DNA of 64,000 nt from Dehalococcoidia bacterium (GTDB lineage Bacteria > Chloroflexota > Dehalococcoidia > Lucifugimonadales > UBA3495), in NCBI GenBank assembly GCA_965203835.1, contig OZ241919.1, forward strand, positions 2,359,101 through 2,423,100, given 5' to 3'. Shown piece by piece: positions 45,086 through 63,001 of the stretch; within the stretch, counting starts at the first letter, position 1; every line of letters starts with the position of its first letter. The notes below the pieces were generated by a model. That model worked only from the letters and a program-made list of their open reading frames with translations, was not told where the DNA came from and ran no database searches. Both the position numbers and the translations under genes were made by a program.

Positions 45086-45088
45086 GGG

Positions 45089-45561: not shown

Positions 45562-45638
45562 GGGCCTGTAGCTCAGGCGGCTAGAGCGCGGTCCTGATAA
45601 GACCGAGGTCGATAGTTCGAGTCTATCCAGGCCCACCA
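45562..45638 (+). tRNA. tRNA-Ile (anticodon GAU), CCA encoded
   Basis: GGGCCTG TA GCTC AGGCGGCTA GAGC G CGGTC CTGATAA GACCG AGGTC GATAG TTCGAGT CTATC CAGGCCC A CCA. The cloverleaf folds by hand. Confidence 0.9.
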
Positions 45639-47215
45639 ACCTGCACGGTAGATAGAACCGCATCGGGAAGGGCCACCTTGTCGGTGGCCTTTCCCGGCGC
45701 CAGGCTATCGCTGGGCATGGGCACGGTGTAGCGCATCAGGGCGTCGCCGGGCACCACGAGAATCTCCTTGACGAAGGTCTCGATGAAGGCCCGCCGCTCG
45801 GTAAGCTCGCTCTCCTCCAGGAAGTCCTTCATCTCCCTTGCGTAGGCGGCGACGGCGTTCACGTCGTCCAGCACCTTCCGCCGCTGGGCCAGGGCGCTCC
45901 TGGCCTCCTCCGCCGAGCATTCCAGCCGGTCCTGCCGCTCCCTGAGTTCGCGGATGCGGGGCCTGAAGTCGTCCACCTCCATGTCGGTGGTCTCCACCAG
46001 GTTGTAGAGCCTGCCCAGCCGCTGGCGCACGTCGTTCAGCTCCGCATCGATGGTCTCCAGCCGCTTGCGCTGCTCCCGGGTGACGCCGCCCATCTCCGAC
46101 TCCACCACCTTCACCAGATCGCGGATGCTGTCCTCGGTGAGGATGTTGGAGCGAATCCGGTTGACCACCAGCTCCTCGAAGCGGCGGGCGTTCAGGGTGG
46201 GAGTAGGGCAGGCGTCCCGGCCGACCTTGATGTTGGTGGGGCAGACGTAATAGGCGTACTGGCCGCTCTTGGCGAAGCGTCCGGTGAGGGGCGAGTCGCA
46301 GACCTTGCACCGGGCCAGGCCGCTGAGCAGGTAGGAGCTTCCGACCCGGCGGGGGTTCCTGACCTTGGGGGCGCGGGAGCGCATCTGCCGGTTCACCTTG
46401 CGGAACTGGGTCTTCGTCACGATGGAGGGAAAGGCCTTCTCCACCCTGACCGGCTCGCCCTTGTCCTTGGCGCCTTCGCCCCATACCAAAGTGCCGGTGT
46501 AAGCCTCGTTGGTGAGGATGCCGTGGACGCTGGTCTTGCCCCAGAGCTTTCCCCTGGGGCTGGCTATGCCCTCGCCGTTGAGGATGCGGGTGATTTCCTG
46601 GGTGCCCCTGGCAGCCTCGGCCAGGTCGAAGATGCGCTTCACGATGCGGGAGGAGTCCGGGTTGACCTCCAGGGTGGGGCGCTTCTTGGGGCCGTCCTGG
46701 ACCATGACCCGGTTGTAGCCGAAGGGGGCGTGGCTGGAGACCCAGAAGCCACGGGAGGCGGCCTCGCGCATTCCCCGCAAAACTTCGGTGGCAAGATTTT
46801 CGCTATAAAACTCGTCCACGGACTCGATGATGGCCTCCATCAGCTTGCCGGTGGGGGTGTCGTCGGCGTGCTCGGTGATGGAGACCACGCGAATGCCCTT
46901 CCTGCGGAGCATGGACTTGAAGGCCACGGCGTGCTCCCGCTTGCGGGTGAAGCGGGAAAATTTCCAGACCAAAATCTCGCGGAAAGGGGCCTGGGACCTG
47001 CTGGCCTCGTCGATCATCCTGCGGAACTCGGGCCTATCGGCGACCCTGCCGCTCTCGGCCTCGTCCACGAACTCGCGGACCACGGTGTAGCCGTTCCTGG
47101 CGGCGTGCTCACGCAGAGCGCGTAGCTGGGCGGCGACGGAGAGGTCCACGTCCTGGCGGTCACTGGACACCCGGGCGTAGAGGGCCACGGGAGTGTTGTC
47201 GTATCGTTCATTCAT
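45623..47215 (-). CDS. Large serine recombinase (integrase)
   Basis: The N-terminal resolvase domain ALYARVSSDRQ has the catalytic Ser motif. A recombinase domain, a Cys-containing zinc ribbon (CKVCDSP...YYVCP) and a long coiled coil follow. Confidence 0.9.
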   Translation of the reverse strand: MNERYDNTPVALYARVSSDRQDVDLSVAAQLRALREHAARNGYTVVREFVDEAESGRVADRPEFRRMIDEASRSQAPFREILVWKFSRFTRKREHAVAFKSMLRRKGIRVVSITEHADDTPTGKLMEAIIESVDEFYSENLATEVLRGMREAASRGFWVSSHAPFGYNRVMVQDGPKKRPTLEVNPDSSRIVKRIFDLAEAARGTQEITRILNGEGIASPRGKLWGKTSVHGILTNEAYTGTLVWGEGAKDKGEPVRVEKAFPSIVTKTQFRKVNRQMRSRAPKVRNPRRVGSSYLLSGLARCKVCDSPLTGRFAKSGQYAYYVCPTNIKVGRDACPTPTLNARRFEELVVNRIRSNILTEDSIRDLVKVVESEMGGVTREQRKRLETIDAELNDVRQRLGRLYNLVETTDMEVDDFRPRIRELRERQDRLECSAEEARSALAQRRKVLDDVNAVAAYAREMKDFLEESELTERRAFIETFVKEILVVPGDALMRYTVPMPSDSLAPGKATDKVALPDAVLSTVQVGGPG

Positions 47216-47489
47216 CTGTGTTTCCTCCTGTCGTTTCGTCCTGCCCTGTCAACCGGGAGCGCAGCCGCTCCAAACGGGCCTGGCGGCGAAGCTCCCTATC
47301 TTCCATGTACAATCGGAGGGCCTCGCGCACCAATTCGCTCATGTCGCGGCCCTCTTCCTCCCTGACCCGCTGCACCTGCTCGAACATATCGGGAGGGAGC
47401 GAGAAGGTAATGGTCCTGGAAATGCGTCGTGGGGGCATGGCGTCTCTTTTTTGCCTGTCAATGTATGGGGTTGTCTTACTATCTATCAT
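47208..47489 (-). CDS. Ribbon-helix-helix (CopG/MetJ-like) protein, overlaps the recombinase start by 8 nt
   Basis: ITFSLPPDMFEQVQRVREEEGRDMSELVREALRLYM is a classic RHH sequence. Confidence 0.75.
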   Translation of the reverse strand: MIDSKTTPYIDRQKRDAMPPRRISRTITFSLPPDMFEQVQRVREEEGRDMSELVREALRLYMEDRELRRQARLERLRSRLTGQDETTGGNTDE

Positions 47490-47545
47490 CGGACATCCGG
47501 CCTTCCCTTGTCAAGAGACGGCGCGTCTCGATGGGGTGAAGAACT

Positions 47546-47569
47546 GCGGCCCAGCAAAGGCTGGGCCGC
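47546..47569 (-). terminator. Stable hairpin between the small ORF and the RHH gene (possible terminator)
   Basis: Perfect 10-bp stem GCGGCCCAGC/GCTGGGCCGC with a 4-nt loop. The T-tract is weak. Confidence 0.3.
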
Positions 47570-47617
47570 CTATGGTTGTGGTGTTCATCGCTCCTGCTGC
47601 CGGGTTCGGGAAAGGCA

Positions 47618-47836
47618 TCAGCCCTCCGCCTCCGGCCCCTTTTCGGCCGGGACTTGTCCGCCCTGCTGGCGCAGGTAGGAGCGGATGGCGACCCTGGCCC
47701 AGATGCGCAGCCCGTTGCGCAGCAACCGCCGCTGCTCCGGCGTGTAGGACACCTCCGGGTTGTCGGGGTAGGGTTCGTTGTCCTGATTGTCGGGTATCTC
47801 CGGTATCTTCTTTCCTTTGTCGTCTTTCATTGGCAT
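47618..47836 (-). CDS. Small hypothetical protein
   Basis: 72 aa ORF with no motif. The coding call is weak. Confidence 0.3.
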   Translation of the reverse strand: MPMKDDKGKKIPEIPDNQDNEPYPDNPEVSYTPEQRRLLRNGLRIWARVAIRSYLRQQGGQVPAEKGPEAEG

Positions 47837-47954
47837 AATCGCAGCGGCCTTTCCCGGCTATCGGCCACGGGCCGCTGGCCTCTCGTCAGTGGTCTGGGGA
47901 CGGGCCGCCGGCGCGTGCGGACAGGGCGGGCGCCGGCGGTTCGTCTACCGGGGT

Positions 47955-48263
47955 CTATTCCTCCTTTTGCTCATCGTTGGGATTGGCCTGCCGGTCCTCG
48001 CCGGTGAGGATGTCCAGACCGCCCTTGACGCGGCGGGCGAAGCGGACCAGGGCCAGCATGGCGCCGCCGCAGGGCTCCACGCCCTGGCGCCAGCGGCGCA
48101 GCTGCTTGCGGTCCACGCCCAGGGCCCGGGCCATGCCGCTCCAGGTGAGGCCGCTGGCCTCCTTGAGCCGGACGATGCGGTCGGCGAAGTCCCGGGGGAG
48201 CACGCCGCTCTCGTGGTAAAACGGGCACCCCCGGCAGGGGTGCTCTTGGTCATGGGTCGTCAT
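47955..48263 (-). CDS. HTH domain protein with N-terminal Cys/His cluster
   Basis: The start is set at MTTHDQEHPCRGCPFYH (48263). The HTH is GLTWSGMARALGVDRKQLRRWRQG. Confidence 0.6.
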   Translation of the reverse strand: MTTHDQEHPCRGCPFYHESGVLPRDFADRIVRLKEASGLTWSGMARALGVDRKQLRRWRQGVEPCGGAMLALVRFARRVKGGLDILTGEDRQANPNDEQKEE

Positions 48264-48528
48264 CTTTGTCCTCCAATCGGAAAAGTTGGTGAAACTCATC
48301 CAGACCGAGGGCCCGGAGCATCCGGCTGCGGATGCGACCCGACGGCGCCCGCTCCCCGTTGACCAGCATGGATATGTAGCCTGGGCTGACGCCGATCTCC
48401 CGTGCCAGCCATTTCTGGGAGCGGTCGAGCAGGCCCAGCCGGTCCCAGAAAGCCGCCGCGTTGAGCCGGACAACGGTCCGCCCCCCGCGCCCCGAGGGGC
48501 CTCCCGGTGTCTTGAAGTTTGGGCACAT
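48250..48528 (-). CDS. XRE-family HTH regulator
   Basis: ATG at 48528 behind GGGAGGTG. The HTH is SQKWLAREIGVSPGYISMLVNGERAPS. Confidence 0.7.
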   Translation of the reverse strand: MCPNFKTPGGPSGRGGRTVVRLNAAAFWDRLGLLDRSQKWLAREIGVSPGYISMLVNGERAPSGRIRSRMLRALGLDEFHQLFRLEDKDDDP

Positions 48529-48565: not shown

Positions 48566-50194
48566 TTACGGGAATGGATGGGCGGTTTCCCAACTGCCCG
48601 GCGTGCGCCAGGCACAGCCCAGCGGCCCAAGTTCTGCCACTGCCGCCCGGTGGGATACCCGCAGGGGGACCGCCACGCGGGCGCGTTCCATCTCCTCCAT
48701 TGCCACCCGCAGGAAGTGGCCGGCGGCGATGTCGTCGTCGAAGACCACCAGGACCTGGGGCCGGACGCCGTGGTCGTCGGCGGGACGGTGGGAGGAGTAG
48801 TAGCGCAGGTAGGGGGCGAGACGCTGGGCCATGGTCCCCGGCCTGACGGCGCGGCGCTCCCACTCCAGGAAGAAGGGCCGGGCGGCACCGTCCCGGCGCA
48901 GGAGGCCGAAGGCGTCGGGGTTGACCGAGCGCCAGCCGCCACCGTGACGGAAGCTGCGGGCGGCCCGGTGGGGCGGGTCCAGCAGGCAGACCTCCCAGCC
49001 CAACACTCGCGATTGCCGGACCAACGCGGCGAGAAAGGAATGGACGGCGGCGGTGTGCTCCAGGTTGCGGAACAGCTGCCGTACCCGCCTGCCGGAGACG
49101 TTGCGCCACGATGGGGGTTGCCCGGAGTTGACGGGTTCCACGCTCCACCGCTTCCTGGCGACGCCCACGGAGGTACGGTCCCTGCGGGCCAGCAGCGCCA
49201 ACCCCCGGTCGGCGAGGGCCTGGCGGCCCCCGCCGGCGGGAACGCGGGCCGCCAGGCCCAGGCTCTCCAGCGGTTCCATCAGACGGGAGGCGCGGGTCTC
49301 GGAGACGCCCATCAGCCCGGCCAGGTCCTTCTGCAGGATCCCGGGCCAGTCGGCCAGCAGGTCCAGGGCGCGCTTCTCGGCGGGCTTCAGCAGGGCAGGC
49401 AGTGCGGTTGCATCGTCCGGTGAGACGTCACTAGGCAGGTCAAGTTTCGACGGGGGCGGCTCGGTGGGAAGCTGACCGCCGGGGTGCAGCCTCTCCAGGG
49501 CCGACGGCAGGTCCAGGGCGGCGTTGGCCGAGGGGAGACGCCAGATGCGGTGTCCGGGTCCCGCCAGCGCCGCGTCGCGCTCCAGGGCCAGCAGGGCCGG
49601 CACGGGGTAGCGGGACAACAGCAGCCGCAGGTGGCGCAGCCGCACCTCGTCGGGGGCCAGCACCATGACAACACCGGGCAGCGGTCCCTGGCCCAGCCGC
49701 CACAGCCGCTTGGCGAAGCCGGTGCGGTCGGCGGTGCGTCCCTGCCGGAGGATTCCGATATAGCGTCCCCCGGGCAGGGCGATTCCGGCGTCCAGCGGAT
49801 GCGCCCGGTACCAGTTGAAACCCAGTGTCCGCCGTAGAGCCGCTATGGACGACGCCAGGGGGTAGATGACGGCCACGGAGTCCAGCCGTTCCAGCAGGCT
49901 GCGCTGCCATCGGGCGGACACGGGGTAGTTCCGGAGGATGTCGTCCGTCCCAGCGCCCTCCTGCTCGGCCAGCCGTCGCAGCCCGTCGGCGTTCAGGTGG
50001 AACCGGCGCGTAGGCGGCAACAGATCGGTGGCGTGGGAGATTGAATCGACAAAGCCGGCCTTCTCCATCCGGTCCACGGCCTCGTAGACTGCGCCCCGGG
50101 ACCGTCCGGCGACGGCGGCCAGCTCCAGCCGGCCCAGGAAGGGCATGCCCGCCAGCGCCCGCATCAGTTCCTGCTCGCTGGCTGCGGGCCTCAT
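48566..50194 (-). CDS. Two winged-helix domains + C-terminal replication-relaxation (Replic_Relax, PF13814-like) domain; candidate relaxase/initiator
   Basis: The start ATG at 50194 overlaps the T4CP stop (ATGA). wHTH segments are GRLELAAVAGRSRGAVYEAVDRMEKAGFV and ILQKDLAGLMGVSETRASRLMEPLESLGL. The C-terminal part has HTAAVHSFL...NPDAFGLL...FFLEWERRAV. Confidence 0.65.
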   Translation of the reverse strand: MRPAASEQELMRALAGMPFLGRLELAAVAGRSRGAVYEAVDRMEKAGFVDSISHATDLLPPTRRFHLNADGLRRLAEQEGAGTDDILRNYPVSARWQRSLLERLDSVAVIYPLASSIAALRRTLGFNWYRAHPLDAGIALPGGRYIGILRQGRTADRTGFAKRLWRLGQGPLPGVVMVLAPDEVRLRHLRLLLSRYPVPALLALERDAALAGPGHRIWRLPSANAALDLPSALERLHPGGQLPTEPPPSKLDLPSDVSPDDATALPALLKPAEKRALDLLADWPGILQKDLAGLMGVSETRASRLMEPLESLGLAARVPAGGGRQALADRGLALLARRDRTSVGVARKRWSVEPVNSGQPPSWRNVSGRRVRQLFRNLEHTAAVHSFLAALVRQSRVLGWEVCLLDPPHRAARSFRHGGGWRSVNPDAFGLLRRDGAARPFFLEWERRAVRPGTMAQRLAPYLRYYSSHRPADDHGVRPQVLVVFDDDIAAGHFLRVAMEEMERARVAVPLRVSHRAAVAELGPLGCAWRTPGSWETAHPFP

Positions 50195-55345: not shown

Positions 55346-56943
55346 GGCCACCAACTCCACCAGGACGAGGAATCGCCCGCCTCGGTCTGCTCCGCCTGCG
55401 GTGGCGGCGGCGTGGGCGGTGGCACCGTGAGGTACCGGAAGGGGTTGTCGGCCCCCACGCCCAGCCCACCCGCCAGGGGCAATGATTCCGGTCGGGTGCG
55501 GGTCACGGGACCGCGCCGGTTCTCCACGGCCCGCACGTGCTCCGGGTGATGGACGCGAATGGTGACCGTCCGGGACACCGAGCACTTTCCGCAGGAGAGG
55601 CGCACGGTGCGCCGGTACACATCGGTGCGGGCCGGGTGGTGGGTGGTCTGCAACATGGGCGGCAGGGGCACGTCCAGCGTGGCCGTAAGCTCCGCCGTGA
55701 TCTCCAGCCGGTGGTCCGCCTTCTCGTTGGCCACCGGCAGCCGGAAACGGGTCTCGCCGCCCTGGACAAAGGGCGCGCTGGTTTGGCGGGAACCCGCCGC
55801 CACGGTCACCGTGCCGGCGATGCCGGTGACGCTGGCGTCCAGCAGGGCGGGCACCGACTGGCTGAAGTGGCCGCCGTAGACCGGCAGGTCCACCTCCTGC
55901 CGGGTGTCGGCGATGCACTGCGAGGCGATGACGCCGTTGATTTGCCCCGGCGTCCACTCCAGGGATGTCAACTCCAGGTCGCACAGCTCCCCGTCATATT
56001 TGGGCAGCGGGTAGGGAATCTGGTGGCTCTTCAGCGACGCCGCCCCGGCGAAGCCCAGGGAGTCCGTCCAGGAAAAGGTGAACGACGGCTTGGGGCCGTC
56101 CAGGGTTAGGTTGTAGGTCTTCCTCTCACCGGAGTGGACGGTGGCGTTGGCGCCCATCTTCAGGGTCTTACCGGTCCTGCCGCCGAAGACCCGCACCTTC
56201 AGGTCCAGGTCGTGGGCGGCGCGGAGTGTGACGGCGGCGGTGTTGCCGGTGACGCTCACCTTCTCGATATAGATGCGGCGTCCGGGCACCGGCTCCGGCG
56301 GCTCGAAGTAGATCTCGCCCAGCCGCCAGGCGTCGCCGTAGGGAGGATCGTCGGGGTCGTCGGCCAGGGCCGGGGATGGAATGGCGATGACGGTCAGCAC
56401 CAGCAGCCCCGCCACCGCCAGCAGCCGGTACCAGGGTTTTCTATCCTGGGTCTCCCGGATGTTGGGCTTGTTCTGGTTGCCCTGTCTGGCGTGTCTCCGC
56501 TTGCCGAACCAGCTATGGGGCCGGAAGGGAGAGCGCCCCTTGTTCCTGGCTGCCTTCACCGCCCTGCCGATGCCACCGGCGGCCTTCTTCACCAGCAGCC
56601 GCAGCGGGTCGGGCTTCTTTTCCGGCACAGGCGGGGCCTCACTGCGGGCCAGTTGGGTGGGGGAACCGGCGTAGCGCCTGGCCCCCAGGTTGAACTTCAG
56701 CAGGTCGGCGGCCACCAGCGGCAGCCCCCGCCCTCCCACCTTCCCCACCGTCATGGCGATGCCGGTGATGCCAAAGACTATGGCGATGCCCAGCCGGAAC
56801 TCCGGTGGTCCAAAGGGGAAGTAGCGGTAGACGCCGTAGGCCAGGGCGCAGGTCGCCACCACCGCCACGATCTGGGGGAAGGTGAACCACAGCAGCACCT
56901 TGTCCTCGGCCTGCACGTGGGTCGGTACTTCATGCTCTCTCAT
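55339..56943 (-). CDS. PrgI/VirB3-like N-terminal domain fused to a large extracytoplasmic domain
   Basis: MREHEVPTHVQAEDKVLLWFTFPQIVAVV plus two TM helices (PrgI-family pattern), a basic linker, a third TM, then a roughly 330-aa beta-rich region and a Pro-rich tail. Confidence 0.65.
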   Translation of the reverse strand: MREHEVPTHVQAEDKVLLWFTFPQIVAVVATCALAYGVYRYFPFGPPEFRLGIAIVFGITGIAMTVGKVGGRGLPLVAADLLKFNLGARRYAGSPTQLARSEAPPVPEKKPDPLRLLVKKAAGGIGRAVKAARNKGRSPFRPHSWFGKRRHARQGNQNKPNIRETQDRKPWYRLLAVAGLLVLTVIAIPSPALADDPDDPPYGDAWRLGEIYFEPPEPVPGRRIYIEKVSVTGNTAAVTLRAAHDLDLKVRVFGGRTGKTLKMGANATVHSGERKTYNLTLDGPKPSFTFSWTDSLGFAGAASLKSHQIPYPLPKYDGELCDLELTSLEWTPGQINGVIASQCIADTRQEVDLPVYGGHFSQSVPALLDASVTGIAGTVTVAAGSRQTSAPFVQGGETRFRLPVANEKADHRLEITAELTATLDVPLPPMLQTTHHPARTDVYRRTVRLSCGKCSVSRTVTIRVHHPEHVRAVENRRGPVTRTRPESLPLAGGLGVGADNPFRYLTVPPPTPPPPQAEQTEAGDSSSWWSWWPW

Positions 56944-56953: not shown

Positions 56954-57247
56954 CTAACCGCCGTCGCCGGTGTCGCCGCCGGTGGTGGGGTCGGGCACGC
57001 TGGGGTCCACCGGGTTGCCGACCACCGCGTTCATCACCAGCTCCACCACGCCGTAGGCCACCAGGGCCAGCACGATGCCGGCCAGGGCGGTCATCATGGC
57101 CGCCTTGCCCCGCTCCATCTGGTTGGGGGCGCCGCTGGCGGTGAGATACATGTAGGCTCCGTAGATGAAATAGCCCACTCCCACCACGCCGACGAGGCCC
57201 AGCAGGATGCCCACCAGGTTCGATACGGTCTGTGTCAGGTCGTCCAT
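56954..57247 (-). CDS. VirB2/TrbC-like pilin candidate
   Basis: ATG at 57247 behind AAGGAGAA. 97 aa with two hydrophobic helices flanking GAYMYLTASGAPNQMERGK. Confidence 0.55.
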   Translation of the reverse strand: MDDLTQTVSNLVGILLGLVGVVGVGYFIYGAYMYLTASGAPNQMERGKAAMMTALAGIVLALVAYGVVELVMNAVVGNPVDPSVPDPTTGGDTGDGG

Positions 57248-57417
57248 AGGGTGTTCTCCTTGTGAATCGAATTTGTCGTTCTTGTTCTGTTTCCGCCGGT
57301 TGCGGGTCAGCCCCGTTGCTCTACTGGCACATCTCTCCACCTCCTGGGGTGGTTAGCTGGGGTGGATAGCGCGGGTCCTTGCCGCGCCGGTAGTTGTCGT
57401 TCTTGGTCGCCATCCGG

Positions 57418-58389
57418 TTACGGCCCCTGGCTCCTCGGCGTAGGACCGCCCTGGGACGTTGGCGTGGAGTTCTGGGCCGCCGAGTTCACCGCGCCCGTGG
57501 CGGCGCTGGTTGCCGTGCTGGTAGCGGCTGCCGCAGCCGCAGCTCCCGCAGGTCCACCGGCGGCGCCGCCCGCCAGCAGCCCCAGGGCGCGCCCCGAGCG
57601 CACCATCGAGCCGGGCAGGGACATGCCGAAGTACAGGGTGTGCAGCCAGGCGTCGAAGGTGCCGTGGTGTCCCAGCATCGAGGGGATGCGGCCCGCCAGG
57701 TACATGAAGGCGATGGCCATCAGCAGCTTCCACACCAGGTCCTGGGCCGCCTCGCCACCGCCGATGGCGGCGAACTGGTCCAGGAAGCCGAAGGCCAGGG
57801 CGATGGCGATGAGCTGCACCGCCTGCTGGAACACGGCGGTCATGAACAGCCGCAGCCAGTGCTTGCCCCAGCCCGCCGTGTGGGGCAGAATCCACAGCCC
57901 CAGCGCCACGGGAGCCAGGCAGAGCAGGATGTCGATCAACGCCAGGCGCAGGATCATCTGCACCAGCAGGTAGAGGATGAAAAACCCGAAGACCAGGTAG
58001 AGCAGGGCGATGAACACCGCCAGGCCGGTACTGGCGGCCTGCGCGGCGTTGAGCAAAGGGTCCAGGGGCGCCCGCAGCAGGTCGCCGGGAGTGACGTTGA
58101 GGGAGGCCGCGATGAACTGGGAGACGGCGTGGGCCACGTCGATGACCAGGGCGCACCACCACAGCGAGGACGCGGCGGCGGTCAGGCCCAGCACCAGGCG
58201 GGGCACCATCTCCCGCCAGCCCGACTGGTGGTGTCCCAGGTGCTCCTGGACGATGAAGCTCAGCCCCATCCAGCCCAGGATGATCACCAGCATTCCCGAG
58301 GCCACCGCCCATACCGCCATCCAGGCAGCCTGGACCACGGGGTTCAGGTAGGTGAGTTCGGGAGGGGTCCCGGTGAGGATGTCGCTCAT
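57418..58389 (-). CDS. VirB6/TrbL-like polytopic membrane protein
   Basis: ATG at 58389 behind GGAGGG. Six or more TM helices and an Ala/Gly/Ser/Thr-rich C-terminal tail. Confidence 0.6.
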   Translation of the reverse strand: MSDILTGTPPELTYLNPVVQAAWMAVWAVASGMLVIILGWMGLSFIVQEHLGHHQSGWREMVPRLVLGLTAAASSLWWCALVIDVAHAVSQFIAASLNVTPGDLLRAPLDPLLNAAQAASTGLAVFIALLYLVFGFFILYLLVQMILRLALIDILLCLAPVALGLWILPHTAGWGKHWLRLFMTAVFQQAVQLIAIALAFGFLDQFAAIGGGEAAQDLVWKLLMAIAFMYLAGRIPSMLGHHGTFDAWLHTLYFGMSLPGSMVRSGRALGLLAGGAAGGPAGAAAAAAATSTATSAATGAVNSAAQNSTPTSQGGPTPRSQGP

Positions 58390-58393
58390 ACCG

Positions 58394-58999
58394 CTACCCT
58401 CCACACTCGGAAATGTCAGTCTCCGTGGCCCGCTCCACCACGCCGCAGAGGGTCCCGTGGACGCCCTGGATCACCCACCTGGCCCCGGCCCGGGCCCAGC
58501 GGTCCGGGTCGAGGGCGCCCAGCACCTTGTCCCACAACCCCTTGGGCTGGTGGACGGGCACCAACGCGTGGAAGACGTGGTGGTCGCCGCCGCCCTGCCT
58601 GGGCACCGACATCACCATCAGGAACGCCTGCTCCGGGTGCAGTTCCGGCTGGCCGTCCAGGACCGGGTACTCGAAGGTGTACTCCCAGCCCTCGGATAGC
58701 TGCTTCTCCCCGCCCTGCACCCGGTAGGTGTTGGTGACCCACTCGCCGGTGTCGGGGTGGCGCAGGGCGTAGAAGAGGACGCTGACCTTCCGGCTGAAGA
58801 CGGGGCGGGCGACGAACTCGCCGTCCTTCTTGCGCTCCACCATCTGCCGGTCCCGGTTGACCAGGCTCAGGTCGTCGGTAGGCGGGGACTGGGCCAGGGC
58901 CGTGCCACAGACGGGGATGGCGGTGATGGCCGTGATAATCAGCGCGGCGGCCAGGAGGGTCAGCCGCCTGGCGGTCAGGGGTATCGGTTGCAGCGTCAA
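58394..58999 (-). CDS. Secreted protein of unknown function, first gene of the transfer operon
   Basis: The preferred start is TTG at 58999 behind GAGAGGTG. The signal-like N-terminus is RRLTLLAAALIITAITAIPVCGTALAQ. The track start at 59065 lies inside a terminator T-tract. Confidence 0.5.
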   Translation of the reverse strand: MTLQPIPLTARRLTLLAAALIITAITAIPVCGTALAQSPPTDDLSLVNRDRQMVERKKDGEFVARPVFSRKVSVLFYALRHPDTGEWVTNTYRVQGGEKQLSEGWEYTFEYPVLDGQPELHPEQAFLMVMSVPRQGGGDHHVFHALVPVHQPKGLWDKVLGALDPDRWARAGARWVIQGVHGTLCGVVERATETDISECGG

Positions 59000-59060
59000 G
59001 TCGTTCACCTCTCTCTGGTATCGGCGGTTGGCGTGTTCGCCAGCGCCGCAGCAGAGTGTG

Positions 59061-59100
59061 AACAACGAAAAGGCCCCGCATAACCTCTCGTAGGGGCCTT
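59061..59100 (-). terminator. Intrinsic terminator-like hairpin immediately upstream of the transfer operon
   Basis: The minus-strand RNA is AAGGCCCC-15 nt-GGGGCCUU followed by UUCGUUGUU. Confidence 0.45.
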
Positions 59101-59131
59101 CAGCGGTGAACGCCCTTACGGGCCCACCCCC

Positions 59132-59287
59132 GTGGGGGCGTTCATCCGTGAGGGGTCTTTCAGGACCGCCCTTGTGGGGGCGTTCATCCGTGAGGGGTCT
59201 TTCAGGACCGCCCCTGTGGGGGCGTTCATCTGTGAGGGGTCTTTCAAGACCGCCCTTGTGAGGGCGTTCATCCGTGAACGCCCCTCC
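59132..59287. repeat. 42-nt tandem repeat, about 3.7 copies
   Basis: Units start at 59132, 59174, 59216 and 59258 (GTGGGGGCGTTCATCCGTGAGGGGTCTTTCAGGACCGCCCTT with a few substitutions). An inverted GTGAACGCCC arm lies at 59106-59115 and again at 59274-59283. Confidence 0.9.
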
Positions 59288-59348
59288 AGGGCCTTACGCA
59301 AACGGCCTGCCCAGTGATGTCATTGGGGTGTACAGGGATTTGGACCTG

Positions 59349-59365
59349 CGTACATTTTTGTACCC
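59349..59365. promoter_or_regulatory. Operator-like palindrome, copy 1
   Basis: CGTACATTTTTGTACCC (GTACA-TTTT-TGTAC inverted repeat). Confidence 0.6.
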
Positions 59366-59500
59366 CCTCCCGTTTCAGGGCTGTTCCAAAGCTGAAATGG
59401 CCCTGAATCGGGGGAAATCGGCCCCCTACAGGAGGGGAACAGTGAACACTTTGACTTGCGGGCGGGTTCCGGCGGGGGTGTGCAAGTCTCCTAGCTGAAA

Positions 59501-59517
59501 CGTACATTTTTGTACCC
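59501..59517. promoter_or_regulatory. Operator-like palindrome, copy 2, within a promoter-like unit
   Basis: Identical 17-mer. GTGCAA lies 17 nt upstream of the TACATT that forms part of the palindrome. Confidence 0.6.
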
Positions 59518-59556
59518 CCGCAAATCGGCGGGGACGTGCAAAAGCCCAAGGTAAAA

Positions 59557-59573
59557 CGTACATTTTTGTACCC
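59557..59573. promoter_or_regulatory. Operator-like palindrome, copy 3, adjacent to the RBS of the 59586 gene
   Basis: Identical 17-mer with the same GTGCAA-17-TACATT arrangement. GGAGGG and the ATG follow within 13 nt. Confidence 0.6.
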
Positions 59574-59585: not shown

Positions 59586-60491
59586 ATGGCATCGGAGCGG
59601 CCGGGGCCGGAGCAGCCGGGGATCGATGGGAGCCGGGACATCGAGGACCTGCACCACCTGCAACTGATGACCCTGTTGCGGGAGCAGGTGCGGGACCACG
59701 GGGTGAGAAAGGCGGCACAGAAGCTGGACGTGGACCACCGGACCCTGAGCTCCGGTCTCCAGAGCGGGCGGCTGTCCCGGCGGCTGCGGCTGTCCTTGGA
59801 GAAGGCGCTGCTGGCGGGGGGCGGGTCCCCGGCCCAGGAACAGCGGCAGCGCAACGACGAGCTGGCCGGGCGGCTGGAGGTGTTGGAAAAGGGAATGGAC
59901 GCGTTGGGCCGGGAAATGCGCGACGGCCTTGGCGCCGTCCAGGGGGAGGTCGAGGCGGTGAGGAATCAGCAGGCCGAGGGAATGCAAAGGCTGGCGCGGT
60001 TGGAAGCGGGCGGAGATGCTGGCGGAAGTGTGGGCGAGGGTGTTGGCGGAGACGATGGGCAGGGCGAAGGGGAGTCAGACAATGGCGTGCGGCAAAGGGG
60101 GAAACCCGCGCCGCGACGAGAGTACCTCGACCTGGCGACGCTGGAGCCCGCCGAGGACGACGCGCAGGTCTTCGGCGCCGCCTGGCCTTTGATTCAGGAG
60201 TGGCGGGAGTTGAAGGAGACCCATCCCGACCGGGGCAAGGGCCTGGACTGGCTGGTGGTGGAGGAACGGTTCCTCACGGTGGAACTGGCGTTGCTGGAGG
60301 AGCACGGGCTGACCCTGCCGCCGGAAACGTATCCGCTGCGGGGCCTGGACCGGGGCGCCCAGGTCAACTGGCGCCGCAAGGCGCTCCACGACACGCGCAA
60401 GGCAATACGGAGGCTGGAACTATTGCGCCGGCTCCGATTGGTGTTTACGTGGGCATTCTGGCGGCGCCTGGTGAAACGGCGGGAATTGTGA
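59586..60491 (+). CDS. HTH + coiled-coil protein, divergent from the transfer operon (candidate element regulator)
   Basis: The HTH is GVRKAAQKLDVDHRTLSSGLQSG. A heptad-like central region and a Gly/Asp-rich linker follow. 301 aa. Confidence 0.6.
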   Translation: MASERPGPEQPGIDGSRDIEDLHHLQLMTLLREQVRDHGVRKAAQKLDVDHRTLSSGLQSGRLSRRLRLSLEKALLAGGGSPAQEQRQRNDELAGRLEVLEKGMDALGREMRDGLGAVQGEVEAVRNQQAEGMQRLARLEAGGDAGGSVGEGVGGDDGQGEGESDNGVRQRGKPAPRREYLDLATLEPAEDDAQVFGAAWPLIQEWRELKETHPDRGKGLDWLVVEERFLTVELALLEEHGLTLPPETYPLRGLDRGAQVNWRRKALHDTRKAIRRLELLRRLRLVFTWAFWRRLVKRREL

Positions 60492-60667
60492 ATTTTGTGA
60501 ACTCTTGCCGGGGGGGTCTTGTAAGACCTACCCAGGAGCCTTGAAACGGGCGACAATATCTGTGTTGTCAGGCTTTTCCAGCGTTTCCCGCCATAGAAAC
60601 CTGGGGGTCCATCCCTCAGCCCGGGTCTGTACCGAAAGGTTGGCCCACGAGGGAACGCTGCCGACGC

Positions 60668-60851
60668 GGAGTGTTCAAGTCCCTCGCAGGCAGCGCGGGC
60701 CGGGGTCACGGGGTGTTTAAGTCCCTCGTTCCCGGCCAGTCCGGCGGCTGGAGTGTTTAAGTCCTTCTTCCCCGGACACCGTTCAGCGGCTCGGAGCTGA
60801 TCCCTCCGGCTGCTGGGCACCCGCCAGATGGCTGGGGTTGATCCCTCCGGC
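60668..60851. repeat. Five phased sites sharing a TCCCTC/TCCTTC core on a 39-42 nt period
   Basis: GGAGTGTTCAAGTCCCTCG (60668), GGGGTGTTTAAGTCCCTCG (60710), GGAGTGTTTAAGTCCTTC (60750), GCTGATCCCTCCGGC (60796), GTTGATCCCTCCGGC (60837). Confidence 0.75.
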
Positions 60852-61385
60852 CACCGGGCGGAGGGGACGGAGCGTTTAGCGGCGCTTCAAGTTCTCACCC
60901 AGGCTGAGGCGTTCGCGGGTTCTGCTCGCGGCGCCCCAGCCGGAAACCAATACCCACCGGAGCGCACGGTCGCGTTTCACCAGGCAACCCATTCCACGGC
61001 GCGGAATCTCTATCCCAGGCCCATTACCATCACAGCGGAGGTGGCAGACAGAAACAGCACGGCATCCCGGATTTCCCTAAACCCATCGGGTTCACCTGGC
61101 GGAGCGGTCCAACCTGCTTCGCAATCCTCATCCTGCGGCTGGAGCGGAAGGCAACAGGCTCCGGCCGCTTCCCCACGCCTGCGGCATAGGCTGTTGAACA
61201 TCAGCAACGGCGCCGCAGGTTCCACACGCTCCGGCAGTCCGTCGGCAACGGCGACAGGCCGGACGCTTGACGTTGCAACGCGGTTGCCACCGGGCCGGTA
61301 GCTGAAAACCTGGCCGCTGGCCGGACTGCGTTACGCACCCGTATCTCCCGTCCCTCCAGCCCTCAGCAGTAGCCCCGGAATAACA

Positions 61386-61650
61386 CCCTGGGCGAGCTGC
61401 GTCCTTCGCCAACCCCCCATCCGGCTTTTCCCGTTGCGCTGCCCGGCCCTGGGCGAAGTGCGTCTTGCACCGGGGCGTTGGATTGCACTCCACAACCTGA
61501 CCCTGGGCGACGTGCGCCCGGCGTCAGCCCACACTGCGCCGTTCTCCGTTGCAATTCCTACCCTGGGCGACGTGCGCCCGGCGTCAGCCCACAACCGGCG
61601 TTCCCCGCATTGCGTTTCCTGGACCCTGGGAGACGTGCGCCTGGCACGAG
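61386..61650. repeat. Five degenerate direct repeats, period 54-63 nt
   Basis: Units begin with CCCTGGG(C/A)GA at 61386, 61447, 61501, 61561 and 61624. Units 3 and 4 share an identical 33-mer, CCCTGGGCGACGTGCGCCCGGCGTCAGCCCACA. Confidence 0.85.
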
Positions 61651-62003
61651 GCGGTAACCGGGGTTACGTCGGCGTTCAAGCGACAGCAACCAGGGCCACG
61701 GTATCCACATCAACGGGCGGCAAATCAACGACCATCAACGACAACGACGACCAGGAGGTGAACGACACGAACACTGACCCGGTTTGCCCCTCCCCTACCA
61801 TTGGAATGCTGGCGGAAGGGGTGAACCGGCGCTAAACCCAGGCCCGCCTCTCGTTCAGCGTTGAGCGAGGCGGCGGAAACCAACAGGCGGCCGGTTGAGC
61901 CGCCACTGACAACCGAAAAAAACACACAGCTTACAGCAAAGCGGGGGTCGGCCTCTTTCGAAAGAGGACCGGCCCCCGCTTTCTGCGTTTCGGAGGAAGC
62001 GAC

Positions 62004-62444
62004 ATGAAGGCGACTACCAACACCAGCATCGACACCAGGATCACGACCAACGGCAACGACAACCCCGCCAACTCTGCGGAGCAGGAACCGGACAGGAAAA
62101 CGACGGTGACGGCGGAACAGGCGCACGGCAAGGGCAAGCCGGAGAGCGAACTCCGCGCGGCCGCCCGGCGCAAGGGCCTCACCCTCAAGCAACTGGCCGG
62201 CCTGATGGGCGTGAGCTACGGGTACGTGTCCCAGGTCAGCAGCGGCAGCAGGCCCTGGACTCCCATGCTGCGGGAACGGGCCATGGCGGTCCTGGGCGAG
62301 GTGCCCGGCCAGGGCGTGGTCTACCGCCAGGGCGGCGTGGTGAACCGCCGAGACCACCTGCATCCGGGAGCGGGCCCGGGAGGTGGGATTGAGCATCAAG
62401 AGCCCTGGCGGAACACTGGTGGGGGTGTCTTCGCAGCTACATGA
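62004..62444 (+). CDS. XRE-like HTH protein
   Basis: The HTH is GLTLKQLAGLMGVSYGYVSQVSSGSRPW. The N-terminus is low-complexity and the tail past about aa 115 is of doubtful quality. Confidence 0.55.
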   Translation: MKATTNTSIDTRITTNGNDNPANSAEQEPDRKTTVTAEQAHGKGKPESELRAAARRKGLTLKQLAGLMGVSYGYVSQVSSGSRPWTPMLRERAMAVLGEVPGQGVVYRQGGVVNRRDHLHPGAGPGGGIEHQEPWRNTGGGVFAAT

Positions 62445-62577
62445 CCCATGGCGTGCCGGGGCCAGAGAAACATGAGCCCTGGGGTCCAGGCCAAGGTGGA
62501 GGCGGTGCTGGAGGCCCCGGTGAAAGTGGAAGCCGCCCGGTGTCCCACCGTGGACACCCAGGACCCTGTGGGACCGG

Positions 62578-63001
62578 ATGGACGCCCACGGCTTTTCGCA
62601 GAACCAGGTGGCCCGGCTGGCGGGCATCAGCACCGGCCATCTCTCCCTGATCATGAACGGCCAGCGCACTCCCTCGGGGGACGTGCTGCGCCGGCTGCAC
62701 CAGGTCCTGTTCGCGCCCACGGCAAGCGGAACTGGTGGTCCCGGTGGAGTTAAAGGTCATGGGCTGGAAGAAGGACGACCGCCAGGGTGTGGTGGTCAAG
62801 GGCGCCGGCGGGCCGGGGCCTGGCGGCAACCATCCGGGCGGCGGCACGGTGCGCATCGGCGGGCGGGTGCCCTGGGGCGCCCAGGTGGAATATGCCTACA
62901 CGAGCGGCTACGACAGCCGGGGCCGGCTGTCGGTAAACCACATCGTTGACGAGCGGGGCTACGGCGTGATGCTGAACAAGCCGAAGCCGGAGGGCGATTA
63001 G
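62578..63001 (+). pseudogene. XRE-like HTH module whose plausible C-terminal domain continues in the +1 frame (frameshifted gene, two overlapping genes, or assembly indel)
   Basis: Frame 1 reads MDAHGFSQNQVARLAGISTGHLSLIMNGQRTPSGDVLRRLHQVLF and then becomes junk-like. The frame of ORF 62735..63001 gives the protein-like VELKVMGWKKDDRQGVVVKG...VEYAYTSGYDSRGRLSVNHIVDERGYGVML. Confidence 0.35.

What the first reader, a model, noticed from the sequence alone, without database searches (positions are those of the whole stretch)
45562..63001. tRNA-Ile-adjacent, GC-shifted integrative conjugative element with a minimal FATA-like type IV secretion set
Immediately after tRNA-Ile the sequence becomes noticeably more GC-rich than the preceding 45 kb, with near-saturated G/C third positions and long antisense shadow ORFs. 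One strand then carries, in order, a large serine recombinase, an RHH protein, two HTH proteins, a wHTH/Replic_Relax protein, T4CP, VirB4, a small TM protein, a PrgI/VirB3-like fusion, a VirB2-like protein, a VirB6-like protein and a secreted protein. Many of these are start/stop-coupled (ATGA, ATGGTAG). No outer-membrane components (VirB7/9/10) are present, and I recognise no peptidoglycan hydrolase. This resembles the monoderm/archaeal MPF-FATA class. Conjugative elements in this kind of host (apparently Chloroflexota-like) are poorly characterised, and several components here are only recognisable by architecture.
Basis: partly seen in the sequence, partly recalled or inferred. Interest (0 to 1): 0.75.

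Follow-up and report, generated by a model that had tools for sequence, protein, structure and literature searches.

The report
Compact conjugative element in Dehalococcoidia
This is a real, roughly 17-kb self-transmissible DNA element inserted at the very end of a tRNA-Ile gene of a Dehalococcoidia (Chloroflexota) bacterium, and it belongs to a large, apparently undescribed family found in several copies per genome in related uncultured bacteria.

Summary
tRNA-Ile(GAT) lies at 45562-45638. G+C rises from 0.60 to 0.68 and GC3 from 0.74 to 0.87. One strand carries a large serine recombinase, RHH, two HTH proteins, a Replic_Relax (MOB_C) relaxase, T4CP, VirB4, two VirB2-like pilins, a PrgI fusion, VirB6/TrbL and a secreted protein.

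The ICE reading is supported. At least 580 relatives of this VirB4 matched, and the 80 examined (84-95% identity) all lie in Dehalococcoidia/Chloroflexota MAGs, often 3-8 per genome, with the same core order. A relative about 91% identical in the flank loses colinearity 5 nt after the same tRNA-Ile.

The left junction is precise: ...GCCCACCA|ACCTGCACGGTAGATAG. The same recombinase type sits beside tRNA-Val, Ile and non-tRNA sites that keep CCACCA, and its reading frame runs across the junction.

The right end is unresolved. The conserved backbone stops at 63001, but the flank is also compositionally foreign.

No peptidoglycan hydrolase or outer-membrane part was found. The nearest plasmid system, in Embleya, has the same gene order plus an NlpC/P60 hydrolase.

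A conserved, non-coding, probably structured region of about 1 kb lies at 60.5-61.5 kb. The multi-HTH regulator gene is disrupted in this copy. I found no paper describing the family.

The parts
45562..45638 (+). tRNA-Ile(GAT), intact. Its 3' end forms the B arm of attL.
   Evidence: ARAGORN and Rfam. It is 77/77 identical to the tRNA-Ile of relative L084, which lacks this element.
45631..45660 (+). Left junction (attL): tRNA 3' end GCCCACCA followed by the element arm ACCTGCACGGTAGATAGAAC.
   Evidence: Identity between the window and L002 (integrated beside tRNA-Val) begins exactly at GCCCACCA. The same arm lies beside tRNA-Val(TAC), tRNA-Ile and non-tRNA flanks that keep CCACCA. Colinearity with L084 ends at 45643.
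45623..47215 (-). Large serine recombinase, 530 aa. Its stop codon lies inside the tRNA gene.
   Evidence: Pfam Resolvase 2e-33, Recombinase 6e-21, Zn_ribbon_recom 5e-13. The best NCBIfam match is CcrB, below its cut-off. The motif YARVSSDRQ is visible in the translation. The reading frame crosses the junction in the window, L002 and L010.
47208..47489 (-). RHH (CopG-type) protein, 93 aa, overlapping the recombinase start. Candidate directionality factor or int regulator.
   Evidence: Pfam RHH_1 1.6e-8. It accompanies 27 of 33 recombinases of this type and 0 of 14 of the other type.
47618..47836 (-). Small conserved protein, 72 aa, function unknown.
   Evidence: Translation. DNA similarity to L002 17248-17514. 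Genes of 71-79 aa are called at the same place in L001 and L002.
47955..48263 (-). HTH protein a, 102 aa.
   Evidence: Pfam HTH_Tnp_1 scores 3.9e-5 (24.2 bits, cut-off 24.1). HTH_23 and the other HTH models fall below their cut-offs. Coordinates.
48250..48528 (-). HTH_3 (Xre-type) protein b, 92 aa.
   Evidence: Pfam HTH_3 4e-9. Coordinates.
48566..50194 (-). Putative relaxase, 542 aa: two winged-helix (MarR-like) domains plus Replic_Relax (MOB_C, PD-(D/E)XK fold).
   Evidence: Pfam Replic_Relax 37 bits (cut-off 25.3) and MarR_2 37.7 bits. PF13814 equals CONJscan MobC (PMC5357655) and has a PD-(D/E)XK fold (PMC3424549). H380, H385, D427, E444, E446 and R447 are invariant in 21 family members. 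dN/dS is 0.41-0.57.
50191..52683 (-). Type IV coupling protein, 830 aa, VirD4/TraG-like.
   Evidence: TrwB_AAD_bind scores above its cut-off. 19 of 19 family members hit TrwB_AAD_bind and TraG-D_C. It is 29% identical (E 3e-35) to the annotated T4CP of an Embleya plasmid. Walker A (RMGKST) and Walker B (VVVDE) motifs are visible in the translation.
52768..54987 (-). VirB4-type ATPase, 739 aa.
   Evidence: NCBIfam CD1110-family VirB4 scores 1.2e-68. Pfam P-loop_TraG, AAA_10 and TraC_F_IV exceed their cut-offs. dN/dS is 0.11-0.17.
55010..55345 (-). VirB2-like pilin, small copy, 111 aa.
   Evidence: Pfam T4SS_pilin 9.6e-8, above its cut-off.
55339..56943 (-). PrgI/VirB3-like membrane N-terminus fused to an extracellular domain of about 340 aa and unknown fold (p534).
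   Evidence: PrgI is weak in this copy (E 0.024) but above its cut-off in a distant homologue (P0412, 29.9 bits). Only 295 cluster representatives among 1.84 billion match. dN/dS is 0.28-0.57. No PDB relative was found.
56954..57340 (-). VirB2-like pilin, second copy.
   Evidence: Pfam T4SS_pilin 4.7e-9. The NCBIfam Mbov_0395 pilin-like family scores 3.8e-10, 39.3 bits against a cut-off of 40.
57418..58404 (-). VirB6/TrbL-like polytopic membrane protein, 328 aa.
   Evidence: Pfam TrbL 28.6 bits against a cut-off of 25.9. dN/dS is 0.13-0.35.
58394..59065 (-). First gene of the T4SS operon: a protein with an N-terminal signal or anchor segment, about 200 aa, family unknown.
   Evidence: No Pfam or NCBIfam hit. 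It is conserved in 73 loci. dN/dS is 0.16-0.42.
59087..59296 (.). Four tandem 42-bp repeats upstream of the T4SS operon.
   Evidence: TRF score 264, 94% matches; the repeat finder family D1. Poorly conserved among loci.
59350..59571 (.). Three copies of the palindrome GTACA-N4-TGTAC (59350, 59502, 59558). Candidate operators upstream of p301.
   Evidence: Three matches against 0.00 expected in shuffles. The same palindrome lies at the same place in L008, L013, L017, L025, L057 and L067.
59586..60491 (+). Divergently transcribed conserved gene (p301), 301 aa, no family match.
   Evidence: Substitutions show strong 3-periodicity, p=2e-28. It is present in 71 loci. No Pfam hit.
60540..61500 (+). 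Conserved non-coding block with repeated hairpins (loop GUGUUYAAGUC). Candidate structured RNA and/or oriT.
   Evidence: 39 loci keep a gene-free spacer of 1.2-2.2 kb here. There is no codon periodicity (p=0.27). Per-column identity is 0.5-0.77. Alifold z-scores of -2.8 to -11 on the + strand are weaker on the - strand. 94.7% of cells pair against at most 53% when slid, and 25 double changes occur against 7.4 in shuffles. No Rfam match.
62004..63001 (+). Regulator with three Xre-type HTH domains, disrupted in this copy. The conserved backbone ends at its stop codon.
   Evidence: Homologues of 316-405 aa are intact in L001, L002, L006 and L017. The window copy aligns in three reading frames and has a 1-nt insertion near 62727. 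The L008 homologue hits HTH_3 three times, E 1.6e-24. Similarity to all 80 loci stops at 62983-63001.
63030..63043 (.). Candidate right-end (P) arm ATCTACCGGATGCC. It holds an inverted copy of the left-arm motif CGGTAGAT.
   Evidence: Read from the sequence. A shared CC dinucleotide fits only with 4-nt inner spacers (45640-41 and 63042-43). It was not corroborated in other loci, so it remains tentative.

Best explanation
The block 45639 to about 63040 is the backbone of an integrative conjugative element (ICE) in a Dehalococcoidia chromosome.

Shown:
- It carries a complete set of conjugation hallmarks for a single-membrane cell: large serine recombinase, MOB_C-type relaxase, VirD4-type coupling protein, VirB4, two VirB2-like pilins, a PrgI/VirB3-like fusion and VirB6/TrbL.
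- The genes are under purifying selection.
- The element is absent from this site in a close relative.
- Near-identical recombinase modules lie beside different tRNA genes and beside non-tRNA sites that all keep ...(G)CCACCA.

Inferred mechanism:
1. The divergent regulatory module controls the T4SS operon. It comprises the palindromic operators, p301, the 1-kb structured non-coding region and the triple-HTH protein.
2. On induction, the serine recombinase excises the element as a circle. The co-inherited RHH protein probably acts as directionality factor or regulator.
3. The PD-(D/E)XK relaxase, guided by its two winged-helix domains, nicks an oriT that has not been mapped.
4. The coupling protein hands the DNA to a minimal VirB4/VirB6/PrgI/pilin channel.
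5. In the recipient, the recombinase inserts the element at or just after the CCA end of a tRNA gene with a GGGC...GCCC acceptor stem. The tRNA stays intact.

Loose target choice would explain the several copies per genome. The missing cell-wall hydrolase would fit an envelope without a thick peptidoglycan layer; this last point is inference from what is known of cultured Dehalococcoides.
For: - Domain assignments.
- Family and host range: at least 580 VirB4 relatives matched. The 80 kept all lie in Dehalococcoidia/Chloroflexota MAGs, with up to 8 loci per MAG. The core order p301-Sec-TrbL-pilin-p534-pilin-VirB4-T4CP-relaxase holds throughout.
- Mobility: 6 of the 7 tRNA genes found in the related VirB4 loci (Val-GAC, Val-TAC, Met, Lys x2, Ile) abut the recombinase end. 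The seventh (tRNA-Asn, L034) lies about 1 kb away, and L034's own junction is a tRNA-Ile 3' fragment. Other junctions are non-tRNA but keep CCACCA.
- Left junction: the window and L002 become identical exactly at GCCCACCA. Relative L084 is colinear up to 5 nt past the identical tRNA-Ile and then differs.
- Composition is foreign.
- dN/dS is 0.11-0.57 for all six genes tested.
- RHH and recombinase are co-inherited in 27 of 33 cases, against 0 of 14 for the other recombinase type.
- An Embleya plasmid has TrbL-like, PrgI, VirB4, T4CP, Replic_Relax and NlpC/P60 in the same order.
- FATA-type systems are known to pair with VirD4 and with MobP, MobQ or MobC relaxases. A compact VirD4-MobC-serine integrase module is known in streptococci (PMC5357655).
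Against: - No attR and no clean empty site were found, so the element's length is not proven.
- The flank after 63001 is also compositionally foreign. The true end may therefore lie beyond the window, or the flank may be an older island.
- The triple-HTH regulator is disrupted in this copy, so this copy may be deregulated or decaying.
- No oriT has been mapped.
- No VirB8-like protein or hydrolase was recognised.
- Structure predictions for p534 and Sec were unusable, with pLDDT 45 and 40.
- The T4CP and p534 have no detectable PDB relative by sequence profile.
- There is no read-level evidence for excision.
Confidence: 0.8

Rival explanations
1. This copy is an immobile remnant. It is an ICE-derived island that has lost its right end and its regulator and can no longer excise or transfer, even though the family as a whole is active.
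For: - The multi-HTH gene is disrupted.
- Similarity to every other copy stops abruptly at its stop codon. Many relatives carry a terminator hairpin and further genes there.
- No att repeat was found.
- The next gene (LuxR-type) is also foreign in composition.
Against: - All eleven backbone genes from the recombinase to p301 are full length.
- Eleven other loci also lose similarity within a few hundred bases of this gene's end, so a short right end is a normal variant.
- An inverted copy of the left-arm motif lies 30 nt after the stop codon.
- L008 has an independent nonsense mutation at the same spot. Loss of the C-terminal part may therefore be tolerated or even favoured.
Confidence: 0.3
2. 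The T4SS is not used for conjugation of the element but for another task such as protein secretion, DNA release or uptake, or cell-cell adhesion within the sponge-associated community.
For: - Two pilin genes and a large lineage-specific extracellular domain (p534) are conserved.
- There is a very weak NCBIfam match of VirB4 to the archaeal DNA importer CedB, E 0.008.
- Multi-copy presence is unusual for ICEs.
Against: - A relaxase and a coupling protein are translationally coupled to the channel genes in every copy.
- The block is always linked to a site-specific recombinase and occupies many different sites. That is the signature of a self-mobile element.
Confidence: 0.07
3. It is an integrated conjugative plasmid or a prophage-like island, not an ICE.
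For: - Iteron-like tandem repeats occur at 59087-59296 and 61385-61665. They could serve replication of an extrachromosomal form.
- The nearest homologues in the plasmid collection are on Actinomycetota, Bacillota and Chloroflexota plasmids.
Against: - No replication initiator, partition, capsid, terminase or tail gene was found by Pfam or NCBIfam.
- 66 of the 80 kept loci lie on contigs longer than 40 kb, 56 of them on contigs of 0.3-5 Mb.
- Plasmid homologues are at most 35% identical.
Confidence: 0.05

Closest known systems
T4SS-type conjugative elements of Actinomycetota, for example the region 274-286 kb of Embleya sp. NBC_00896 plasmid NZ_CP108778.1
   Same: - Same gene order: TrbL-like, PrgI family protein, small protein, VirB4-like ATPase, coupling protein, replication-relaxation family protein.
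- VirB4 is 34.5% identical and the T4CP 29%.
   Different: - The actinobacterial system has an NlpC/P60 hydrolase directly after the relaxase. None is present here.
- It is plasmid-borne, with no serine recombinase or tRNA junction in the stretch examined.
- Identities are low.
- The Dehalococcoidia p534 extracellular domain, Sec and p301 have no counterpart detected.
MPF-FATA ICEs, conjugative transposons and IMEs of Bacillota, including the CD1110-type VirB4 family and streptococcal IME_Class_8 (VirD4 + MobC relaxase + serine integrase; PMC5357655)
   Same: - The best curated VirB4 family match is CD1110, E 1e-68.
- It is a monoderm-type set without VirB7/9/10.
- It has the compact T4CP-MobC relaxase-small protein-serine integrase module.
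   Different: - The VirB4 score (232) is below the family cut-off (325).
- Serine-integrase ICEs of streptococci are, to my knowledge, reported to insert in protein-coding genes. Here the target is the CCA end of tRNA genes.
- No VirB8-like or hydrolase component was recognised.
- The host phylum is different.
Dehalococcoides ssrA genomic islands with the CcrB-like serine recombinase DsiB (PMC3146451)
   Same: - Same bacterial class.
- A serine recombinase of about 540 aa lies on the reverse strand directly next to attL, which is formed by the 3' end of a tRNA-like RNA gene.
- Foreign DNA accumulates downstream of the target gene.
   Different: - Those islands target ssrA and leave a 20-bp direct repeat. 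They also carry DsiA, RecF-like, ParB and Mom-like genes and encode no conjugation machinery.
- Here the targets are several tRNAs and CCACCA-containing sites.
- No repeat of 16 nt or more exists in the window.
- A full T4SS, relaxase and T4CP are present.
Mycoplasma ICEs (Mbov_0395 pilin-like and Mbov_0397 VirB4 families)
   Same: - The host has no cell wall, or a reduced one.
- It is a minimal T4SS.
- The pilin-like protein scores 3.8e-10 and VirB4 1.5e-42 against these NCBIfam models.
   Different: - Scores are below the family cut-offs.
- Mycoplasma ICEs use a DDE transposase and insert almost randomly (from memory).
- They have no MOB_C relaxase.

Membership tests
Integrative conjugative element (ICE) | Site-specific recombinase at one end of the element | tested here: met
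   Large serine recombinase at 45623-47215 with all three Pfam domains above their cut-offs.
Integrative conjugative element (ICE) | Relaxase, coupling protein and VirB4 with further mating-pair-formation genes in one block | tested here: met
   Replic_Relax, TrwB_AAD_bind, P-loop_TraG/AAA_10, TrbL and T4SS_pilin (twice) all exceed their Pfam cut-offs.
Integrative conjugative element (ICE) | Both junctions defined and an empty site found in relatives | tested here: inconclusive
   attL is defined to within 8 nt. Relative L084 lacks the element at the identical tRNA-Ile, but that site holds other inserted DNA. attR was not found.
Integrative conjugative element (ICE) | Excision as a circle and transfer between cells | not testable with these tools
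   This needs reads or experiments. There is only indirect support from occupancy of many different sites.
MPF-FATA class of type IV secretion systems | VirB4 belongs to the FATA clade | tested here: inconclusive
   The best curated match is the CD1110 family (232 bits, cut-off 325), followed by Mycoplasma ICE VirB4. The nearest plasmid homologues are in Actinomycetota, Bacillota and Chloroflexota. No phylogeny or CONJscan run was possible.
MPF-FATA class of type IV secretion systems | No outer-membrane core (VirB7/9/10) | tested here: met
   No such Pfam or NCBIfam hit in any of the 14 reading frames scanned, out of the 15 in the block.
MPF-FATA class of type IV secretion systems | Class-typical accessory proteins: PrgI/TrsC-like, VirB6-like, VirB8-like and a cell-wall hydrolase | tested here: inconclusive
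   PrgI-like is present through homologues and VirB6/TrbL is present. No VirB8-like protein or hydrolase was found by sequence. Structure models were too poor to test by fold.
MOB_C relaxases (Pfam Replic_Relax, PD-(D/E)XK fold) | Match to PF13814 and conserved acidic or histidine active-site residues | tested here: met
   37.0 bits against a cut-off of 25.3. H380, H385, D427, E444 and E446 are invariant in 21 sequences. The equivalence PF13814 = MobC comes from PMC5357655.
MOB_C relaxases (Pfam Replic_Relax, PD-(D/E)XK fold) | Site-specific nicking at an oriT | not testable with these tools
   No oriT has been mapped. Candidates are the intergenic repeats and the 60.5-61.5 kb block.
Large serine recombinases (phage- and ICE-type integrases) | Resolvase catalytic domain with the active-site serine, plus recombinase domain and zinc ribbon | tested here: met
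   Three Pfam domains match. The motif YARVSSDRQ is visible in the translation.
Dehalococcoides ssrA genomic islands (DsiB family) | Integration in ssrA with a 20-bp direct repeat, and an integration module DsiB-DsiA-RecF-ParB-Mom | tested here: not met
   The target is tRNA-Ile. There is no repeat of the tRNA 3' end in the window. The neighbours of the recombinase are RHH and HTH proteins. The family's features are taken from PMC3146451.

The most novel reading that the evidence does not exclude
This may be a previously undescribed and very successful family of minimal ICEs that multiplies inside the genomes of uncultured, probably sponge-associated, Dehalococcoidia. Three features would set it apart:
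- a large serine recombinase with relaxed specificity for the ...GCCCACCA end of tRNA genes, whose own reading frame spans the attachment site;
- a hydrolase-free, two-pilin type IV channel adapted to a wall-poor single-membrane envelope;
- a 1-kb structured RNA as part of its control or transfer region.
Probability: 0.45. Interest if true: 0.72.

Novelty: new variant of a known kind. Interest (0 to 1): 0.6.

Why it matters
Four searches of the open literature found no paper describing conjugative elements in Dehalococcoidia. The mobile islands described in Dehalococcoides have no known transfer machinery (PMC3146451).

- A widespread, compact and self-contained ICE would give a concrete route for gene flow in this class, including among sponge symbionts.
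- It would offer a natural vehicle and an integrase for genetics in organisms that, to my knowledge, still lack genetic tools.
- A serine integrase that inserts just after the CCA end of several tRNA genes without damaging them would interest those who use such enzymes as tools.
- A T4SS that has shed its wall hydrolase and keeps two pilins helps define the minimal monoderm conjugation machine.
- The conserved 1-kb structured non-coding region is a new candidate regulatory RNA or transfer origin.

Tried and rejected
**Empty site**
- The RadA neighbours of two close relatives were fetched. L083 lacks the tRNA-Ile locus altogether. L084 has the identical tRNA-Ile followed by a different element-end-like sequence and an IS21. 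Absence of this element is therefore shown, but not a clean attB.
- No similarity exists between L084's downstream DNA and any part of the window or the other loci.

**Sequence beyond 64 kb**
- The window's own proteins are not retrievable (VirB4, the 352-aa LuxR-type P0241 and its paralogue P0244).

**Direct repeats of the tRNA 3' end**
- None was found with up to 3 mismatches.

**Right-arm motif**
- ATCTACCG at 63030 is an inverted copy of the left-arm motif. Searches for the same arm in related loci gave only chance-level hits.
- A second candidate, CCACC-TGGTAGAGAG at 63145-63159, resembles a shortened left junction but could not be corroborated either.

**Other searches**
- The flank shared by L010 and L052 was tested as an RNA gene: no Rfam match.
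- PDB searches by sequence and by family profile gave nothing for the T4CP or p534, and only winged-helix regulators for the relaxase.
Single-sequence models of p534 and Sec had pLDDT 45 and 40, so no fold search was run.
- A protein-coding reading of 60.5-62.0 kb was rejected: there is no codon periodicity and both strands give fragmented 'hits'.
- The prophage reading was rejected for lack of any structural gene.

Full report
**1.

ARAGORN finds a single tRNA in the window, tRNA-Ile(GAT), at 45562-45638 on the + strand. Rfam agrees. G+C is 0.600 upstream, 0.680 from 45639 to 63043 and 0.664 in the last kilobase. Mean GC3 is 0.743 for ten upstream genes and 0.865 for ten genes of the block (p=0.003).

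The upstream genes are ordinary chromosomal ones, including ClpC, RadA, MoaE, an IMP-dehydrogenase-like gene and a 5S rRNA.

From 45623 to 59065 all real genes lie on the - strand. Several are translationally coupled, with ATGA at T4CP/relaxase and ATGGTAG at p534/pilin.

**2. What the genes are**

Pfam and NCBIfam give these assignments:
- A large serine recombinase with all three domains (Resolvase 2e-33, Recombinase 6e-21, zinc ribbon 5e-13). Its best curated relative is CcrB.
- A CopG-type RHH protein.
- Two small HTH proteins.
- A 542-aa protein with two MarR-like winged helices and a Replic_Relax domain (37 bits, cut-off 25.3).
- An 830-aa protein matching TrwB_AAD_bind above its cut-off.
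- A 739-aa VirB4 (CD1110 family 1e-68, plus P-loop_TraG, AAA_10 and TraC_F_IV).
- A TrbL/VirB6 protein.

Both small membrane proteins that flank the 534-aa gene match T4SS_pilin above its cut-off.

The 534-aa protein matches PrgI only weakly in this copy (E 0.024). Distant homologues found in the 1.84-billion-protein library reach the PrgI cut-off. Its family is small, with 295 cluster representatives, and its C-terminal domain of about 340 aa has no known family.

All 19 family members of the T4CP match TrwB_AAD_bind and TraG-D_C. The protein is 29% identical (E 3e-35) to a PGAP-annotated conjugative coupling protein on an Embleya plasmid.

Replic_Relax is the CONJscan MobC relaxase superfamily (PMC5357655) and has a PD-(D/E)XK nuclease fold (PMC3424549). 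H380, H385, D427, E444, E446 and R447 are invariant across 21 family members.

No VirB7/9/10, VirB8-like, VirB11 or cell-wall hydrolase family was detected.

**3. It belongs to a large family confined, as far as sampled, to Dehalococcoidia**

The VirB4 has more than 120 protein clusters at 83-94% identity in public data. Against one genome per GTDB species, at least 580 stretches matched, and the 80 kept (84-95% identical) are all in MAGs labelled Dehalococcoidia or Chloroflexota. Some carry names (RHO1, IRC4) that I recall as sponge samples. That recollection is unverified.

Many genomes hold several copies:
- 8 loci in MAG S32_232;
- 5 each in CBDBDE, CBDBMH and CBDCMJ;
- 4 each in OY763410 and CBDCRJ;
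- 3 in OZ242009 in this scan, plus a fourth (L002) found.

The order p301(-)/Sec/TrbL/pilin/p534/pilin/VirB4/T4CP/relaxase is the same in all loci that are long enough. The HTH genes, cargo and recombinase module vary. dN/dS between copies is 0.11-0.17 for VirB4, 0.13-0.35 for TrbL and 0.16-0.57 for the T4CP, relaxase, p534 and Sec. These are working genes, not shadow ORFs.

In the plasmid collection nothing exceeds 35% identity. The best hits are on Actinomycetota, Bacillota and one Chloroflexota plasmid.

**4. The left junction and the integration rule**

The window and locus L002 share a recombinase gene that is 94% identical in DNA. L002 sits next to tRNA-Val(GAC). Their alignment is perfect from the element inward and breaks exactly at the last eight bases of the tRNA, GCCCACCA.

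Among the related VirB4 loci there are seven tRNA genes. Six of them abut the recombinase end in the same geometry: Val-GAC, Val-TAC, Met, Lys twice and Ile. All six end in GCCCACCA. The seventh, a tRNA-Asn in L034, lies about 1 kb away and is not a junction.

Copies with the same element arm (ACCTGCACGGTAGATAG) also lie beside non-tRNA DNA that still reads (G)CCACCA, and in L034 beside a tRNA-Ile 3' fragment. The recombinase therefore recognises a short motif at the CCA end and is not restricted to one gene. That fits the multi-copy state.

The tRNA-Ile in the window is intact and identical to that of a relative without the element.

The recombinase reading frame always runs across the junction and stops in the flank. 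It ends ...VQVGGPG* here...VGGR* beside tRNA-Val, and carries 17 more residues in L010. The differences are a few residues, so I regard this as a consequence of compaction and not as a proven regulatory device.

**5. Absence in a relative**

RadA of the window is 96% identical to proteins on two contigs. L084 is about 91% identical in DNA to window 33114-45643. Colinearity stops 5 nt past the tRNA-Ile. Downstream it carries a different element-end-like sequence (AACTGGATAAAATCAAGAAC, also seen next to a second recombinase in L032 and L038) and an IS21. This tRNA is therefore a repeated landing site, and the 17-kb block is not part of the conserved chromosome. L083 lacks the tRNA locus.

**6. 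The right end is not settled**

Similarity to all 80 loci ends at 62983-63001, the stop codon of the triple-HTH gene.

About half of the relatives continue with further genes: a protein of 474-480 aa, DUF6226 or a small gene. In eleven the similarity ends within a few hundred bases of this gene.

Thirty bases after the stop codon lies ATCTACCG (63030-63037), the exact inverse of CGGTAGAT in the left arm. CCGA lies at the same outer offset. A shared CC dinucleotide (45640-41 and 63042-43) would fit a 2-bp crossover.

I could not find the same arm in related loci. A second candidate, CCACC-TGGTAGAGAG at 63145-63159, looks like a shortened left junction.

The LuxR-type gene that follows has element-like GC3 (0.89). 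It has no homologue above 81% identity, even though close relatives of the host are in the database. It is therefore accessory too: either cargo, with attR beyond the window, or an older island pushed downstream. Tandem islands of that kind occur behind ssrA in Dehalococcoides (PMC3146451).

**7. Regulatory side and a conserved non-coding block**

Between the T4SS operon and the divergent gene p301 lie four 42-bp tandem repeats, which are poorly conserved among loci. There are also three copies of the palindrome GTACA-N4-TGTAC, where none is expected by chance. The palindrome recurs at the same place in six of the related loci, among them the three whose p301 is most similar to the window's (L008, L017, L025).

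Downstream of p301, 39 loci keep a gene-free spacer of 1.2-2.2 kb. In the window, about 60540-61500 is as conserved as the coding parts. Its 2,504 substitutions show no three-base periodicity (p=0.27), against p=2e-28 in p301.

Consensus folding beats column shuffles strongly on the + strand (z down to -11) and much less on the - strand. For 60680-60900, 57 predicted pairs are 94.7% paired, against at most 53% when slid. They carry 25 double substitutions against 7.4 in shuffles.

A hairpin with the loop GUGUUYAAGUC is repeated three or four times. Many G-U pairs point to RNA on the + strand, but an ssDNA or oriT role is not excluded. Rfam has no match.

The triple-HTH gene is disrupted in the window. 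Homologues align to it in three reading frames, there is an in-frame TGA at 62442, and there is a 1-nt insertion near 62727. L008 has a nonsense codon at the same spot.

**8. Comparison with known systems**

- The closest architecture is the actinobacterial T4SS-type plasmid module. It has the same order plus an NlpC/P60 hydrolase that is missing here.
- The Bacillota FATA elements share the VirB4 family and the T4CP-MobC-serine integrase module (PMC5357655).
- The Dehalococcoides ssrA islands share the class, the CcrB-like recombinase and its position next to an RNA gene's 3' end. They have no conjugation genes, use another target and leave a 20-bp repeat (PMC3146451).
- Four literature searches found no paper describing a conjugative element in Dehalococcoidia, and a fifth broader search on conjugation systems of single-membrane bacteria found none either.

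**9. Verdict**

It is an ICE of the monoderm (FATA-like) kind with a MOB_C relaxase and a large serine recombinase. It is a member of a new, abundant Dehalococcoidia family with several unusual traits.

What remains open:
- the right end;
- whether this particular copy is still mobile;
- the roles of p534, Sec, p301 and the structured non-coding block.

Noticed in passing
window 60540-61500 (+): A conserved non-coding block of about 1 kb inside the element. It shows no codon periodicity, has strand-specific conserved secondary structure and carries a repeated hairpin with the loop GUGUUYAAGUC. No Rfam family matches. It is a candidate structured RNA or transfer origin.
   Followed up: partly
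window 59350-59571: Three exact copies of the palindrome GTACATTTTTGTAC lie upstream of p301, where none is expected by chance. The same palindrome is found at the same place in six related loci, among them the three with the most similar p301. It is probably an operator.
   Followed up: partly
window 62004-63001; L008 about 2388-3400: The triple-HTH regulator is disrupted in the window by an in-frame TGA at 62442 and a 1-nt insertion near 62727. L008 has an independent nonsense codon at the same position as that insertion. This may be recurrent loss of the C-terminal domain.
   Followed up: partly
window 63188-64000 (-): A LuxR/NarL-type response regulator carries a 210-bp tandem duplication that doubles its HTH domain (63196-63615). 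The gene runs off the window; its product is listed as 352 aa. Its composition is foreign like the element's, and its nearest homologue is only 81% identical.
   Followed up: partly
window 32220-33476 (+): A 418-aa gene whose orthologue in L084 is recorded with Pfam Tubulin and CetZ_C. This is a CetZ-like tubulin, a family mainly known from archaea, in a Chloroflexota chromosome.
   Followed up: no
window 40161-40277 (+): A 5S rRNA gene (87 bits) stands alone upstream of clpC. No 16S or 23S rRNA gene is present anywhere in the window.
   Followed up: no
L084 12402-12420; L032 about 19550; L038 about 19800: A second kind of element end (ACTGGAYAAAATCAAGAAC) follows the tRNA-Ile in relative L084. 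In L032 and L038 it belongs to a second, oppositely oriented recombinase abutting the first element. This suggests head-to-head or successive insertions at the same hot spot.
   Followed up: partly
L008 1600-1782: A partial second copy of the 3' end of the triple-HTH gene lies a few hundred bases beyond the end of the resident element. This suggests remnants of an earlier element at the same site.
   Followed up: no
L001 20153-22117: Next to another family member lie genes with Prok_Ub and Prok-E2_D domains (a bacterial ubiquitin-like system), downstream of a different type of serine recombinase.
   Followed up: no
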